Below, piece by piece: positions 26,760 to 30,966 of a stretch of DNA of 64,000 nucleotides. The stretch's first letter is position 1. Each line of letters begins with the position of its first letter. Source of the DNA: Escherichia coli. GTDB lineage: Bacteria; Pseudomonadota; Gammaproteobacteria; Enterobacterales; Enterobacteriaceae. The translations under genes and the position numbers were made by a program. The stretch lies in the NCBI RefSeq assembly GCF_003790525.1, contig NZ_CP033635.1; one strand, 5' to 3'. Under the pieces are notes generated by a model. The model made no database searches. It was not told the origin of the DNA and worked only from the letters and a program-made list of their open reading frames with translations.

Positions 26760-27341
26760 ATGAATTTTTTAGCTCACCTGCATTTAGCCCATCTCGCGGA
26801 AAGCTCGCTTTCCGGCAATTTGCTGGCTGATTTCGTACGCGGAAATCCTGAAGAAAGTTTTCCGCCCGACGTCGTGGCTGGCATTCATATGCATCGGCGT
26901 ATCGACGTACTAACCGACAATCTGCCGGAAGTCCGCGAAGCACGGGAATGGTTTCGTAGTGAAACTCGCCGCGTTGCGCCTATTACGCTGGATGTCATGT
27001 GGGATCACTTTCTTTCCCGCCACTGGTCGCAGCTGTCGCCGGACTTTCCGCTACAGGAATTTGTCTGTTATGCCCGCGAGCAAGTGATGACGATTTTGCC
27101 GGACTCACCGCCACGTTTTATCAATCTGAACAATTACTTGTGGTCAGAGCAGTGGCTGGTGCGCTATCGCGATATGGATTTCATCCAGAACGTGTTAAAC
27201 GGCATGGCAAGCCGTCGCCCACGTCTGGATGCCCTGCGTGACTCCTGGTACGATTTAGACGCCCATTACGATGCTCTCGAAACCCGCTTCTGGCAGTTTT
27301 ATCCGCGGATGATGGCGCAGGCGTCACGCAAGGCGCTCTGA
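26760..27341 (+). CDS. acpH: Acyl carrier protein phosphodiesterase
   Basis: 193 aa, [28 protein letters not shown]... Confidence 0.92.
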
Positions 27342-27361
27342 AACTTCAAGCTCCGGCGTCA

Positions 27362-28807
27362 CTATTTTTTAGCATTCGCATCCAGCGGAGCGGCATAACA
27401 ACTGTAAGAAAAACATTCGCTGGAATGATTGGCGATATCTTTAAAGTTGCTTTCAGCAACCCCCTCGAACATGAGTACCGTTCTGGACAACTCTCCGTTG
27501 TCATTTATATGTGGAAAATCAAATTGTGTACTGAATCGCCATACATCTGTCTTTTCTGGCTCGCTGTTCACAGAGATACGTCGATGGAAGACTCCTCCTG
27601 AAAACGTGCGCCAGAACAATTGTTGATCAAAATCTTGTAATATCTCAGAGTTGGATGCTATTTGATGTAGTAAACCTGCATACCGTGGACTGCCATTACG
27701 AGCAACATTATGCAAACCCTGACTAAAAGCATCAAACAAACAATAGATGTGATCACTAGTGAAAAAAGGTCTTAATTTTTTTTGTTCTTCATCGCTGTAA
27801 TCCAGGAGCATCTCATTGATTTCTTCCGGTGAGAATTTTAAGACAAAATTATCCTCAGGATTTGTTTCTTTCTTGTTTTTTTCACTATTCTTCTCCTCAA
27901 TGGTCTTCGCATTTTGTTTCGCAATTTTTTCCTCAGTTTTTTTCGCAATTTTTTCCGCAATTTTTTCCCGAGTTTTTGATTTTAGACTAACACCATCGAT
28001 GTCAACCGATGTTGTTTTCAGATCTCTCTGCGCGTCTTTCAAATTTGTCTTATAGAGATCAGGCACTTTATCGGCAGATAAGTATCCGGATGAAGAAATC
28101 TGGTGTGTACGCATGGGGGGCTGTTCACAAAGCATCGAGGCTATATCGTCTTTAAACTCTTTTACATTAAAGTTATCGGCATTAACCTTCCCTGTTATAA
28201 ACCCCGCATCGGCAATTTTCTTCTCTAATTGTTTTGTACGTTTAGAATAATAAGCGTTGTTATCATAAAACTTTTCAAGAAGGGCCCACTCCTCAAGTTG
28301 CCTTATGTGATTTTTCAACTGTTGATGATCTATTTTATATTCATGTGTACTAGAATCATTTTGGTTGCAAGAGTTACAGATTTTTAAGCATAATTTTCCA
28401 TCAGATTTATCATCTATGGTATCAGTGAAAATATAGGACACTTCAATATTCTGCCCGTTCTTATCAGTCATCTCATATGACCATTGCCCCGTTCGTTTCG
28501 CATTCTTAATGAGTTCGATGGACTCTGCAGGACAACCATGAAGAATGGGCAGAATTTTATCAGGATGCTTAATGAGTAAAATTATTATATTTACAATGTT
28601 TGAAAAGAAATCTTTGCTATTTTTTATTTCATCGATTTTTTCCGCTGAAATGTTTACTAAGTTTTCATTTCCGGAAATGAAAAGCAATTTGCCATGGGGG
28701 CTTTTTTTAAATTGTTCTTCTGTTTTAGAAAAAACATCCTCTTTAAAAGGTGGCAACTCAGTACCAGGAATAAACGGTTTCAATAAATTCGAATTTGAAA
28801 TTGTCAT
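27362..28807 (-). CDS. Hypothetical 481-aa protein, no family recognised; AT-rich single-gene insertion between acpH and malZ
   Basis: Uninterrupted ORF with ATG at 28807 and ggag Shine-Dalgarno 7 nt upstream. Lys/Asn/Glu/Ser/Ile-rich, no signal peptide or TM helix, an internal (EKIA)n repeat, a CLKICNSC cysteine cluster and a more conserved-looking C-terminal third. Flanked by housekeeping genes; by eye clearly lower GC than the flanks. Confidence 0.6.
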   Translation of the reverse strand: MTISNSNLLKPFIPGTELPPFKEDVFSKTEEQFKKSPHGKLLFISGNENLVNISAEKIDEIKNSKDFFSNIVNIIILLIKHPDKILPILHGCPAESIELIKNAKRTGQWSYEMTDKNGQNIEVSYIFTDTIDDKSDGKLCLKICNSCNQNDSSTHEYKIDHQQLKNHIRQLEEWALLEKFYDNNAYYSKRTKQLEKKIADAGFITGKVNADNFNVKEFKDDIASMLCEQPPMRTHQISSSGYLSADKVPDLYKTNLKDAQRDLKTTSVDIDGVSLKSKTREKIAEKIAKKTEEKIAKQNAKTIEEKNSEKNKKETNPEDNFVLKFSPEEINEMLLDYSDEEQKKLRPFFTSDHIYCLFDAFSQGLHNVARNGSPRYAGLLHQIASNSEILQDFDQQLFWRTFSGGVFHRRISVNSEPEKTDVWRFSTQFDFPHINDNGELSRTVLMFEGVAESNFKDIANHSSECFSYSCYAAPLDANAKK

Positions 28808-28913
28808 ATCTTTGCTCCACTACAGGGTTATCCTGGAGCATGTTGTACATAACCTCATTGGCAAAGAATACCAAAAATCGCTCATATCGAACGGGACAAA
28901 TATTTAACAAACT

Positions 28914-28961
28914 CAGCCCTGACATTGAGCAGCTTTTTTGCGCTGCGTAGTGTCAGGGCTG
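28914..28961. repeat. Long inverted repeat in the malZ 3' region (possible terminator between malZ and the inserted gene)
   Basis: cagccctgaca (28914-28924) and tgtcagggctg (28951-28961) are perfect reverse complements around a 26-nt loop that itself contains a T-run. Confidence 0.4.
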
Positions 28962-28993
28962 GTGACTACGACGTAATAAATAAAACAGATGCT

Positions 28994-30808
28994 TTAGTTG
29001 ATCCACACCGTAGCCGAAATGGCAGGCAAAGCCAGAATCCCGTCTGTCAGTTGCCCATGGCCTTCTTTGCGTTGCCATTGCGCAACATTAAGCAACGGTG
29101 ACGCGGGTAGCACCACTTCACAGGCTTCTCCACGGTTGATTGCCACCAGTACACGCTGCTGATTCAGCACGCGGCCAAATACCACCACGTTATCTTCCGC
29201 ATACAGCACCTGACAGCCGCCACGACGCAGCGCCTGACTTTTCTTACGCAGCGCAATCATTCGCTGGTACAGCGCGAATAACGCCGTATCCTGCTTTTCC
29301 ACCTGCCAGGGGAACGGTTTACGGCAAAACGGATCGTTTTTACCATCCAGCCCCACTTCATCACCGTAATAAATGCACGGTACACCAGGCCAGGTGAACA
29401 ACCAGACCACCGCCAGCGGCAGGCGCGCAATATCCCGACCGAGCAGCGTTTTAAATCGCGCAGTATCGTGGCTATCGAGCTGATTAAACATACGCAGTTG
29501 CTGTTGATGAGAAAGTCCGGCGCGGTAATTATCCATCCAGGCCATACAGGTTTGGGCGTCAATTTGCTGCGGATCATAAGAGATGTCGGTATTGGCAAGA
29601 AATCCCCACAACGGGAATGTGAAGCCGCGATAGTTCATGGCGGCATCTTCCACATCGGCCTGTAACCATTGCCGTGCATCGCCAAAATGCTCTCCAACGA
29701 TATACGCTTCCGGCTGGGTTTCTTTCGCCGCTTCGGTGATCCCGGCAACGTGCTGCAAATTATTGCGCGCCCCACCCGCTTCCCCCAGCATATGCACCAC
29801 ATCCAGCCGCCAGCCGTCCATATTCCACGGCGCTTTCAGCCAGTGGCGGACAATACTGTCTTCCCCGCGATAAATTTCATTCACCAGACTTTCCGACTGA
29901 TAATCCAGTTTCGGCAAGCTGGCATAGCCCAGCCAGTCGAGCGCCGTGCCATCGTCACTAAACGAGTACCAGTCGCGCCAGGGCGATTCGGGGTTGTGAC
30001 AAGCACCACCCGTGCCACGATTGTGCCTGTCAAACCAGGCATGGGAATCGCCACTGTGGTTAAACACGCCATCCAGCACCAGCCGCATTCCCAGCTGCTG
30101 CGTATGGTGTCGCAAACGCAGCAACGCTCCGTCGCCGCCAAACTGCGGATCGACGTGGCGATAATCCTCTGTATCGTATTTATGTACGCTGGGGGCTTTA
30201 AACACCGGGTTAAGATACAGCGCCGTCACGCCGAGCTTTTTCAGATACGGCAGTTTTTCGCTGATACCGTCCAGATCGCCGCCATAGAACGTTGATCCGC
30301 CCGCCTGCGCCGTGACCGGTTCATCCCAGTCACGCAATATGATCTCTTGTCCGGCTGCGTGATGGTAATAAACATGATCCTGTTCAGCTTCACGAGGAAG
30401 ACTACGGGCGAAACGATCAGGGAAGATCTGATAAAAAATCTGATCCGCAGCCCATTGTGGGCCGATATCCGGGACATCGACAGCAAACTGCTCCAGTCGT
30501 GCTGGCGGCATTCGGCTGAAGCCCTGCGGTGTAAACCAACGCTGGCGATCGTGCCACAGTAATTTGAAACTATAACGCCGCCGAGGTTGCCCGCTGGAGA
30601 GATCGATCGCCGCCCGCCATGCGGTAACGCCAGGCTGCGGCTGACTGCGCTGCTTATGCATCGCTACTGACGTTTCTTCGTTGTCGTGTTCTGTACGCAG
30701 CATAATGCGCTGCGGTGGGTCTTCGCCCGTCAGCCACAGTGTAATAAGCAGTTGATCTTTGCTTTGTTTAACAAATGGGGGCACCGGCAGGTGCCATGCA
30801 TTTAACAT
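28994..30808 (-). CDS. malZ: Maltodextrin glucosidase
   Basis: About 604 aa GH13 enzyme, [45 protein letters not shown]... Confidence 0.93.
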
Positions 30809-30966
30809 CATAATTCCCCTGTGATGAAAATCTGATCACCTTGCCATAGCCTAATGCAGGATCACTCATCATCTGAAGGATATTTGGGGGAGGAGGACGG
30901 GGGCGGATAACTTTCGGAATAGCCGGATCAGGATTTCCTCCTGAACCGGCTTACAGAACGCAAGGA

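What the first reader, a model, noticed from the sequence alone, without database searches (positions are those of the whole stretch)
27908..27967. In-frame 12-nt tandem repeats inside the orphan gene
On the + strand the unit cgcaattttttc (reverse complement gaaaaaattgcg, encoding EKIA) occurs at 27920-27931, 27944-27955 and 27956-27967, with degenerate copies between. Together they encode REKIAEKIAKKTEEKIAKQNAKTIEEK. Perfect adjacent 12-nt copies are substrates for slipped-strand mispairing, so the linker length may vary between strains without breaking the frame. It may be a flexible linker between two domains.
Basis: seen in the sequence. Interest (0 to 1): 0.3.

Follow-up and report, generated by a model that had tools for sequence, protein, structure and literature searches.

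The report
Variable in-frame repeat in orphan gene
A 12-base repeat inside an E. coli-only gene of unknown function really does gain and lose whole copies between strains, changing the length of a spacer between two protein domains; this is a well-supported but ordinary example of a known kind of mutation-prone sequence.

Summary
Three perfect copies of CGCAATTTTTTC lie at the stated coordinates, in frame, in a 481-aa ORF (27362..28807, minus strand). The window is E. coli SMS-3-5. The array is longer than reported: about 10 degenerate units (27863-27982) encoding [A/K/E/R]-[E/K]-[K/E/Q]-[I/T/N]. It is the only strong tandem array in the 64 kb and exceeds chance.

Proteins from other E. coli strains form a ladder of 469, 473, 477, 481, 485, 489, 493 and 505 aa (7 to 16 units). 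Every length difference lies in the array. DNA comparisons show exact gains or losses of 12 or 36 nt between short direct repeats in otherwise near-identical genes. A divergent allele without the repeat has the same linker length in 118 of 118 proteins.

Change is slow. O157:H7/O55:H7 genomes are identical, and the window's exact allele is on at least 1000 contigs against one for its deletion derivative. Poly-A runs inside units are also the frameshift sites that made pseudogenes in O145:H28 and other strains.

The gene is a true orphan, fast evolving, on a 1.65-kb islet between acpH and malZ. The spacer is weakly predicted to be helical, not flexible. It is a new member of a known kind.

The parts
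27362..28807 (-). Orphan protein-coding gene, 481 aa. It is ECSMS35_RS02170 / WP_000155925.1 in E. coli SMS-3-5 and the orthologue of ECs_0454 in O157:H7 Sakai.
   Evidence: ORF list. 100% match to NC_010498.1, annotated as hypothetical protein. Chance of a 481-codon open frame at this base composition is about 1e-16. No Pfam, NCBIfam, PADLOC, PHROGs or PDB match. Only one full-length cluster among 1.84 billion representatives.
27863..27982 (-). Full degenerate 12-nt array: 10 units of consensus GCG-RAA-AAA-ATT encoding residues 276-315 (KSKT REKI AEKI AKKT EEKI AKQN AKTI EEKN SEKN KKET).
   Evidence: Unit-by-unit layout of six alleles. Unit profile from 37 distinct arrays. Period-12 self-match 0.62 against 0.40 in shuffles.
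27908..27967 (-).
27920..27931 (-). Perfect copy 1 of CGCAATTTTTTC (EKIA, residues 293-296).
27944..27967 (-). Perfect copies 2 and 3, adjacent to each other (EKIA-EKIA, residues 281-288). Together with copy 1 they bracket the 36 nt that are missing in the 469-aa allele L006/P0002.
27876..27882 (-). A7 run (T7 on the plus strand) in the SEKN unit. The homologous run is A8 in O145:H28, which frameshifts the gene there.
27983..28807 (-). N-terminal conserved block, residues 1-275, ending in VDIDGVSL. Residues 102-158 weakly resemble PKD-type repeats.
   Evidence: Alignments. Weak PKD lead.
27362..27856 (-). C-terminal conserved block, residues 318-481, plus the stop codon.
   Evidence: Alignments.
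27345..28990 (.). Low-GC islet of about 1.65 kb (GC 0.32-0.39 against about 0.53 in the flanks), inserted between the stop codons of acpH and malZ. It is absent from K-12 and carries only this gene.
   Evidence: Composition profile. K-12 junction, with acpH and malZ stop codons 4 nt apart. Present in about 1126 of 5426 complete E. coli genomes.

Best explanation
The segment is an in-frame variable-number tandem repeat (VNTR) with a 12-nt period. It encodes a charged tetrapeptide repeat, [A/K/E/R]-[E/K]-[K/E/Q]-[I/T/N], which forms the spacer between the two conserved blocks of an Escherichia-specific orphan protein.

Shown: whole units are gained and lost between strains (7 to 16 units; 469 to 505 aa). 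The breakpoints lie in short direct repeats, so the frame is always kept.

Inferred: the mechanism is replication slippage, meaning RecA-independent misalignment between short direct repeats. This follows from the event products and from established knowledge of short-repeat instability.

Shown: the rate is low. Alleles are fixed within clonal lineages, and derivatives are rare next to their parent alleles. This is a slow, lineage-level polymorphism, not a fast switch.

Shown: the A6-A8 runs inside the units give a second mutational mode. A change of one A frameshifts the gene, and this has made pseudogenes at least twice.

Inferred, moderate to low confidence: the spacer is probably a continuous amphipathic, Lys-rich alpha-helix and not a floppy linker. 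If so, each unit would add about 6 Å (4 residues x 1.5 Å) and about 40 degrees of twist.

Inferred: the length changes are probably tolerated, near-neutral by-products of an A-rich low-complexity stretch in a weakly constrained gene.
For: Real repeat, in frame.

Length ladder confined to the array: five alleles; 120 relatives with linker lengths of 30, 34, 38, 42, 46, 50 and 54 aa; a 66-aa linker in strain F2_81.

Sixty complete genomes taken at even steps down the match ranking: 29 at the window's length, 19 at +12, 8 at +24, 2 at +25 (frameshift), 2 repeat-less.

Exact events at the DNA level:
- a 36-nt deletion between two GGAAAAAATTGCG copies, in a gene with only 2 aa differences elsewhere;
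- duplication of GCGGAAAAAACT, loss of GCGGAAAAAACT, and a 12-nt loss between AAAATGCGAA copies, each with only 2-4 other nt differences in the gene.

At least 19 independent length changes on a flank-only tree.

Natural control: the repeat-less 461-aa allele family has an identical linker length in 118 of 118 proteins, against seven length classes among 116 repeat-bearing proteins.

Slow rate: at least 60 O157:H7/O55:H7 genomes are 100% identical over the whole gene. The window's exact allele is on at least 1000 contigs, and its deletion derivative is on 1.

Frameshifts in poly-A runs of the array.

Helix: modelled as H277-307 with 10-residue block mean pLDDT of 72, 72 and 60 over residues 271-300, among the best-scoring parts of a poor model, and H281-319 in the 505-aa allele. 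Only 4 Pro/Gly in 1556 array residues.

Weak constraint: dN/dS of 0.35-1.4 against 0.00-0.04 for acpH in the same strain pairs. Array amino-acid diversity is 2-3 times that of the flanks.
Against: The mechanism is inferred from event products, not observed. Unequal recombination or gene conversion between units would give the same products.

The tree used for counting events ignores recombination between alleles, which could inflate the figure of 19.

The protein hit lists are cluster representatives, so the counts are not population frequencies.

The structural models are poor (mean pLDDT 39 and 35). In the 505-aa allele the helix grew by only 8 modelled residues for 24 added, at pLDDT 24-53, so 'helical spacer' is weakly supported.

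Neutrality is not demonstrated. No allele has fewer than 7 units, dN/dS near 1 could also reflect diversifying selection, and no expression or phenotype data exist.
Confidence: 0.8

Rival explanations
1. Adaptive tuning or contingency locus. On this reading the array is maintained because variation in spacer length (units of 12 nt) and on/off switching (poly-A +/-1) diversify a protein that interacts with a host, a phage or a competitor. Selection would favour the mutability itself.
For: dN/dS is near 1 in both domains while the 481-codon frame stays open. Array diversity is 2-3 times that of the flanks. Gains and losses recur. Two independent poly-A frameshifts lie inside the array, and one O145 strain is back in frame. 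The gene sits on a low-GC islet with patchy distribution.
Against: There is no sign of fast switching. O157:H7/O55:H7 genomes are identical, 24 genomes with the O145:H28-type allele share the same frameshift, and derivatives are rare next to parent alleles. The 12-nt unit cannot switch expression. The purest stretch has only 2-3 perfect copies, far fewer than in classical contingency tracts. A repeat-less allele is widespread (on at least 730 contigs). There is no signal peptide, no surface or secretion signature, and no defence-system hit.
Confidence: 0.12
2. Artefact. On this reading the length differences are assembly or sequencing errors in a low-complexity A-rich stretch, and the true array is invariant.
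For: Homopolymer-rich, low-complexity DNA is error-prone on some platforms. Some variants are known from a single contig.
Against: The length classes are shared by many independent complete genomes from different laboratories and are consistent within lineages. The differences are exact multiples of 12 nt at unit boundaries, not random indels. The whole array is under 200 nt, so it fits within single reads. The repeat-less allele shows no length noise in 118 proteins.
Confidence: 0.03
3. Wrong strand. On this reading the functional element is the antisense 79-aa Phe-rich ORF on the plus strand (27816..28055), or a non-coding element, and not the 481-aa ORF.
For: All three antisense frames are open across the array, and a 79-aa ORF with a hydrophobic product is listed.
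Against: The antisense openness follows automatically from A/G-rich sense codons. It scales with array length and is broken in the repeat-less allele. The 481-codon sense frame is kept across alleles with synonymous divergence (dS) of 0.02-0.08, and its chance probability is about 1e-16. A GGAG lies 6 nt upstream of the sense ATG.
Confidence: 0.02

Closest known systems
In-frame coding VNTRs of bacterial proteins, for example the 24-nt repeats of the S. aureus spa X region, the 18-nt Ser-Asp repeats of clf/sdr genes, and the repeats of the group B streptococcal alpha C / Rib proteins (from my own knowledge, not checked here)
   Same: Tandem units whose length is a multiple of 3. Whole-unit gain and loss between strains. 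The array lies in a spacer region between functional domains. Slippage or short-homology recombination is the accepted cause.
   Different: Those proteins are secreted, wall-anchored surface proteins with many near-perfect copies and fast change, which is why they are used for typing. Here the protein has no export signal, the units are degenerate with only 2-3 perfect copies, and change is slow and lineage-level. No published description of this locus was found.
Simple-sequence contingency loci of Neisseria, Haemophilus and Campylobacter: phase variation through homopolymer or tetranucleotide tracts (from my own knowledge)
   Same: Poly-A runs (A7/A8) inside a coding region shift the frame by +/-1 and inactivate the gene.
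   Different: The frameshifts are fixed in lineages, with 24 identical genomes of the O145:H28 type, so they do not appear to be switching. The tracts are short. The 12-nt unit preserves the frame.
ER/K single alpha-helix (SAH) spacers, as in myosin VI/X and caldesmon (from my own knowledge)
   Same: A charged, Pro/Gly-free segment modelled as one uninterrupted helix between two domains. The length would set the spacing between domains.
   Different: Charged residues make up only about 52% of the array (22 of 42), with net charge +6. The units contain Ile/Ala/Thr/Asn, and opposite-charge pairs at i/i+4 are not enriched over other spacings. Helicity is not experimentally supported.
Length-variable helical or extended spacer proteins that act as rulers, such as TolA domain II, Lpp, and the type III secretion needle-length protein YscP (from my own knowledge; a paper search for TolA repeat variation returned nothing relevant)
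   Same: A repeat-built spacer whose residue count can change in whole units, which in principle changes a physical distance.
   Different: There is no evidence that this protein spans any compartment or measures anything. It has no homology to those proteins, and its function is unknown.

Membership tests
In-frame coding VNTR (slippage-prone tandem repeat) | Head-to-tail tandem copies beyond chance expectation | tested here: met
   TRF reports period 12, 5.1 copies, score 80, and it is the only array with score 60 or more in 64 kb. Period-12 self-match is 0.62 against 0.40 +/- 0.04 in shuffles, reached by 0 of 5000.
In-frame coding VNTR (slippage-prone tandem repeat) | Unit length is a multiple of 3 and lies inside an open reading frame | tested here: met
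   The 12-nt units are in frame in the 481-aa ORF.
In-frame coding VNTR (slippage-prone tandem repeat) | Copy number differs between strains by whole units | tested here: met
   7-13 units in 37 distinct arrays and 16 in F2_81. Proteins of 469-505 aa in 4-aa steps. Complete genomes differ by 0, +12 or +24 nt.
In-frame coding VNTR (slippage-prone tandem repeat) | Event breakpoints lie in direct repeats, in otherwise near-identical alleles | tested here: met
   A 36-nt deletion between 13-nt perfect copies. Single-unit duplication and loss events with only 2-4 other nt differences in the gene.
In-frame coding VNTR (slippage-prone tandem repeat) | Length variation depends on the repeat: a non-repetitive allele is stable | tested here: met
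   The repeat-less allele family has a 38-aa linker in 118 of 118 proteins, against seven length classes in the repeat-bearing set.
Contingency locus / phase-variable simple sequence repeat | Frequent, reversible change within clonal populations | tested here: not met
   At least 60 O157:H7/O55:H7 genomes are identical. 24 genomes with the O145:H28-type allele share one frameshift, with one in-frame exception. Parent allele on at least 1000 contigs against 1 for the derivative. True mutation rates cannot be measured with these tools.
Contingency locus / phase-variable simple sequence repeat | The repeat change switches expression on and off | tested here: inconclusive
   The 12-nt units keep the frame. 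Poly-A +/-1 changes inside units do frameshift the gene, but they look like fixed pseudogenisation.
ER/K single alpha-helix spacer | Very high E/R/K content with an alternating i/i+4 opposite-charge pattern | tested here: not met
   About 52% of the 42 array residues are charged, net charge is +6, and i/i+4 pairs (6) are no more common than i/i+1 or i/i+3 pairs (7 each).
ER/K single alpha-helix spacer | A stable isolated helix | tested here: inconclusive
   AF2 models a continuous helix at 277-307 (block mean pLDDT 60-72) and at 281-319 in the long allele (pLDDT 24-53). The overall models are poor. Pro/Gly are nearly absent.
Heptad coiled coil | Hydrophobic positions with a period of about 3.5 residues | tested here: not met
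   The hydrophobic period is 4 (Ile/Ala every fourth residue). The hydrophobic moment peaks at 90 degrees, not 100-103. This is a crude test; no coiled-coil predictor was run.
PKD domain (N-terminal block only) | A match to the Pfam PKD models above the gathering score | tested here: not met
   No PKD hit in Pfam even at E = 1. The only link is a weak phmmer similarity of residues 102-158 to PKD repeats of P0139, E = 8e-7.
Published E. coli VNTR typing (MLVA) loci | The locus or its repeat unit is described in the literature | tested here: inconclusive
   Full-text searches for the unit sequence, locus tags and protein accession found nothing relevant. The library lacks most subscription-journal papers.

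The most novel reading that the evidence does not exclude
The orphan may be a fast-evolving interaction protein, facing a host, a phage or a competitor. In that case the repeat-built helical spacer would be a selected 'length dial', with each unit adding about 6 Å and about 40 degrees if helical, and the embedded poly-A runs would act as an on/off switch. That would make ECs_0454 / ECSMS35_RS02170 a chromosomal contingency-type gene in E. coli, a species in which simple-sequence contingency genes are, to my knowledge, uncommon. dN/dS near 1 with a preserved 481-codon frame would then reflect diversifying selection and not decay.
Probability: 0.1. Interest if true: 0.55.

Novelty: new member of a known kind. 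Interest (0 to 1): 0.25.

Why it matters
The case shows the expected behaviour of a short coding repeat unusually cleanly:
- a complete 4-aa length ladder;
- exact unit-level events at the DNA level;
- a built-in negative control, the repeat-less allele that never varies in length;
- a second, frame-breaking mutational mode in the same stretch.

In practice it gives a lineage-level length marker for E. coli strains that carry the acpH-malZ islet. These include SMS-3-5, O157:H7/O55:H7 and O145:H28.

It also flags a source of annotation differences. The annotated product ranges from 461 to 505 aa, and the gene is a 'frameshifted' pseudogene in O145:H28.

It does not reveal what the orphan protein does. 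The biological weight is small unless the spacer length turns out to matter.

Tried and rejected
Function of the protein.
- Pfam, NCBIfam, PADLOC and PHROGs scans gave only sub-threshold noise.
- PDB sequence and profile searches found nothing.
- The exhaustive representative search found no relative apart from fragments of the same gene and one weak PKD-like hit.

Structure.
- Two AlphaFold2 runs gave poor models (pLDDT 39 and 35).
- I therefore did not run fold searches, because matches to such models would be meaningless.

Origin of the islet.
- No phage match.
- The two 'plasmid' matches are 4.9-Mb records, which are mislabelled chromosomes.

Literature.
- No paper mentions ECs0454, WP_000155946, Z0503 with O157, an acpH/malZ hypothetical protein, or the repeat unit.
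- The hits for Z0504 are fungal strain codes.
- The TolA repeat analogy could not be documented.

Rejected readings.
- Antisense ORF as the real feature: it is a by-product of A/G-rich codons.
- Sequencing artefact: the length classes are consistent across many complete genomes.

Promoter and terminator scan. It gave no more sites than shuffled sequence, so it is uninformative.
Full report
**Where the window comes from and what surrounds the finding**

The region 27300-28900 is 100% identical to E. coli SMS-3-5, NC_010498.1. The finding lies in a 481-aa ORF on the minus strand (27362..28807). RefSeq annotates it as a hypothetical protein, ECSMS35_RS02170 / WP_000155925.1. Its orthologue in O157:H7 Sakai is ECs_0454.

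The gene sits alone on a low-GC islet of about 1.65 kb. GC there is 0.32-0.39, against about 0.53 in the flanks. The islet lies between the stop codons of acpH (26760..27341, plus strand) and malZ (28994..30811, minus strand). In K-12 those two stop codons are 4 nt apart and the gene is absent. About 1126 of 5426 complete E. coli genomes carry it.

**Checking the observation**

- CGCAATTTTTTC occurs perfectly at 27920-27931, 27944-27955 and 27956-27967, and nowhere else in the window.
- The intervening 12-mers are degenerate copies.
- Tandem Repeats Finder reports period 12, 5.1 copies, at 27908-27968. This is the only array in the 64 kb with a score of 60 or more.
- Period-12 self-match is 0.62, against 0.40 +/- 0.04 when codons are shuffled only within the array. 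None of 5000 shuffles reached it.
- A perfect adjacent 12-nt duplicate arose in 2 of 5000 codon shuffles of the whole CDS.

In the coding register the array has about 10 units: KSKT REKI AEKI AKKT EEKI AKQN AKTI EEKN SEKN KKET. These are residues 276-315, window 27863-27982.

**Does copy number vary?**

Yes.

- Five alleles from complete genomes are 481, 485, 481, 505 and 485 aa. Every length difference falls in the array.
- Among 120 close relatives, the segment between the anchors VDIDGxSL and EDNFVLKF is 30, 34, 38, 42, 46, 50 or 54 aa, giving proteins of 469 to 493 aa. It is 66 aa in strain F2_81.
- That corresponds to 7-13 units in 37 distinct arrays, plus one array with 16.
- In 60 complete genomes taken at even steps down the match ranking, the bracketed segment differs from the window by 0 nt in 29, +12 in 19, +24 in 8 and +25 in 2. 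The remaining 2 carry a repeat-less allele.

**The events at the DNA level**

| Event | Change | Differences elsewhere in the gene |
|---|---|---|
| Window allele to 469-aa allele (L006/P0002) | Exact 36-nt deletion between two GGAAAAAATTGCG copies | 2 aa |
| 489 aa to 493 aa (L017) | Exact duplication of GCGGAAAAAACT | 3 nt |
| 489 aa to 485 aa (L018) | Exact loss of GCGGAAAAAACT | 4 nt |
| 481 aa to 477 aa (L020) | 12-nt loss between AAAATGCGAA copies | 2 nt |

On a neighbour-joining tree built only from the non-repeat residues, Fitch parsimony needs at least 19 length changes among 130 proteins. All of them are multiples of 4 aa. Recombination between alleles could inflate this number.

These products are what replication slippage between short direct repeats gives. 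That mechanism is inferred from established knowledge and was not observed here.

**A natural control**

A divergent allele family of 461 aa is 80% identical to the window protein. In place of the array it has a non-repetitive linker, KTRRHLADIIHVKCMREKNYTTDQGFELPEE.

Using the anchors VDI[DN]GxSL and LLDYS[DN]E, all 118 proteins of that family with recognisable anchors have the same 38-aa segment, with 8 sequence variants. The repeat-bearing set has seven length classes and 36 variants among 116 proteins.

Length instability therefore goes with the repeat. The control also shows that the protein can exist without the array. Because the gene has no outgroup, I cannot say which state is ancestral.

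**Tempo**

Change is slow.

- At least 60 O157:H7 and O55:H7 genomes are 100% identical across the whole gene. Their repeat copies are imperfect.
- All nine sampled genomes with the SMS-3-5-type segment (at least 99.7% identity) have the same length.
- The window's exact protein is recorded on at least 1000 contigs. Its 36-nt deletion derivative is on one, the 493-aa gain on one or two, and the 485-aa loss on four or five.

This is a lineage-level polymorphism, not a fast switch.

**A second mutational mode**

The units contain A6-A8 runs.

- In O145:H28 the gene is annotated as a frameshifted pseudogene. The cause is A7 to A8 in the IEKN unit. The same allele is 100% identical in 24 complete genomes, so it is not an error confined to one assembly.
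- One O145 strain, RM12275-C1, has A7 and an intact ORF.
- O78 strain 3 and strain KV7 carry A8 to A7 in the AKKN unit and are also annotated as frameshifted. Two further records span the same 374 nt.
- The homologous A7 run in the window is at 27876-27882.

**What the array encodes**

- The unit profile is [A/K/E/R]-[E/K]-[K/E/Q]-[N/I/T]. Only 4 of 1556 array residues are Pro or Gly.
- In the window allele 22 of 42 residues are charged, and net charge is +6.
- Ile/Ala recur every fourth residue, and the hydrophobic moment peaks at 90 degrees.
- AlphaFold2 on the 481-aa allele gives a poor model (mean pLDDT 39) but draws the array as one helix, 277-307. The 10-residue block means over 271-300 are pLDDT 72, 72 and 60, higher than anywhere in the model except residues 321-350.
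- In the 505-aa allele the helix is 281-319, at pLDDT 24-53.

A helical spacer is therefore more likely than a flexible one, but support is weak. The array does not meet the composition criteria for an ER/K single alpha-helix or for a heptad coiled coil.

**What the gene is**

- No Pfam, NCBIfam, PADLOC, PHROGs or PDB match is significant.
- An exhaustive search of 1.84 billion representatives found one full-length cluster. The other matches are 80-95%-identical fragments of the same gene, plus one weak hit of residues 102-158 to PKD repeats of an unrelated environmental protein.
- It was not found on phages or true plasmids.
- The 481-codon frame is very unlikely to be open by chance, about 1e-16. 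A GGAG lies 6 nt upstream of the ATG.
- dN/dS between alleles is 0.35-1.4. Neighbouring acpH shows 0.00-0.04 in the same strain pairs.

The gene is real but weakly constrained or diversifying. It has been inactivated in some lineages.

**Rivals**

- Adaptive contingency locus. This is not excluded, but it is disfavoured by the slow tempo, the few perfect copies and the widespread repeat-less allele.
- Sequencing artefact. Rejected, because the length classes are exact multiples of 12 nt and consistent across many independent complete genomes.
- Antisense 79-aa ORF. Rejected, because it is a by-product of A/G-rich sense codons and is broken in the repeat-less allele.

**Comparison with known systems and verdict**

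The feature meets every criterion I tested for an in-frame coding VNTR. It does not meet the criteria for a phase-variable contingency locus, an ER/K helix, a coiled coil or a PKD domain.

I found no publication on this locus. The library I searched lacks most subscription-journal papers.

It is a new member of a known kind. Interest is modest.

Noticed in passing
window 27362-28807 (orphan) compared with 26760-27341 (acpH): Between the same strain pairs, the orphan gene has dN/dS of 0.35-1.4 at dS of 0.02-0.08, while adjacent acpH has dN/dS of 0.00-0.04 at dS of 0.11-0.16. The islet is less diverged at synonymous sites than its flank, so islet and flank may have different histories. The orphan is either barely constrained or under diversifying selection.
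   Followed up: partly
window 27876-27882, with loci L007, L012, L013 and L014: Poly-A runs inside repeat units are the frameshift sites that made the gene a pseudogene. The change is A7 to A8 in 24 complete genomes carrying the O145:H28-type allele and A8 to A7 in O78 strain 3 and KV7. One O145 strain, RM12275-C1, is in frame, which could be a reversion, the ancestral state or an assembly difference.
   Followed up: yes
locus L008 1455-2840 (strain AHM21C2872I); protein P0141: A second allele class of the orphan (461 aa, 80% identity) has a non-repetitive linker in place of the array and is found on at least 730 contigs. Whether the array expanded from this sequence or was replaced by it cannot be decided without an outgroup.
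   Followed up: partly
window 28334-28504 (residues 102-158 of the orphan): These residues have a weak similarity (E = 8e-7, about 30% identity) to three PKD-type repeats of a 947-aa environmental protein with a peptidoglycan-binding domain (P0139). Pfam itself gives no PKD hit on the orphan. A beta-sandwich in the N-terminal block is possible.
   Followed up: partly
window 28915-28960 (minus strand): A composite hairpin, AGCCCTGACA ... TGTCAGGGCT with inner stem GCAGC/GCTGC, lies just downstream of the malZ stop codon and inside the islet. It could be the malZ terminator in islet-bearing strains or a remnant of the insertion.
   Followed up: no
PLSDB records NZ_CP134663.1 and NZ_CP141089.1: Two records in the plasmid collection that carry the gene are 4.9 Mb long, so they are chromosomes filed as plasmids.
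   Followed up: no
window 27345-28990: The islet boundaries fall immediately after the stop codons of two convergent housekeeping genes, acpH and malZ, which are 4 nt apart in K-12. I did not see flanking direct repeats, an integrase or a tRNA gene. How the islet was inserted or lost is unexplained.
   Followed up: partly
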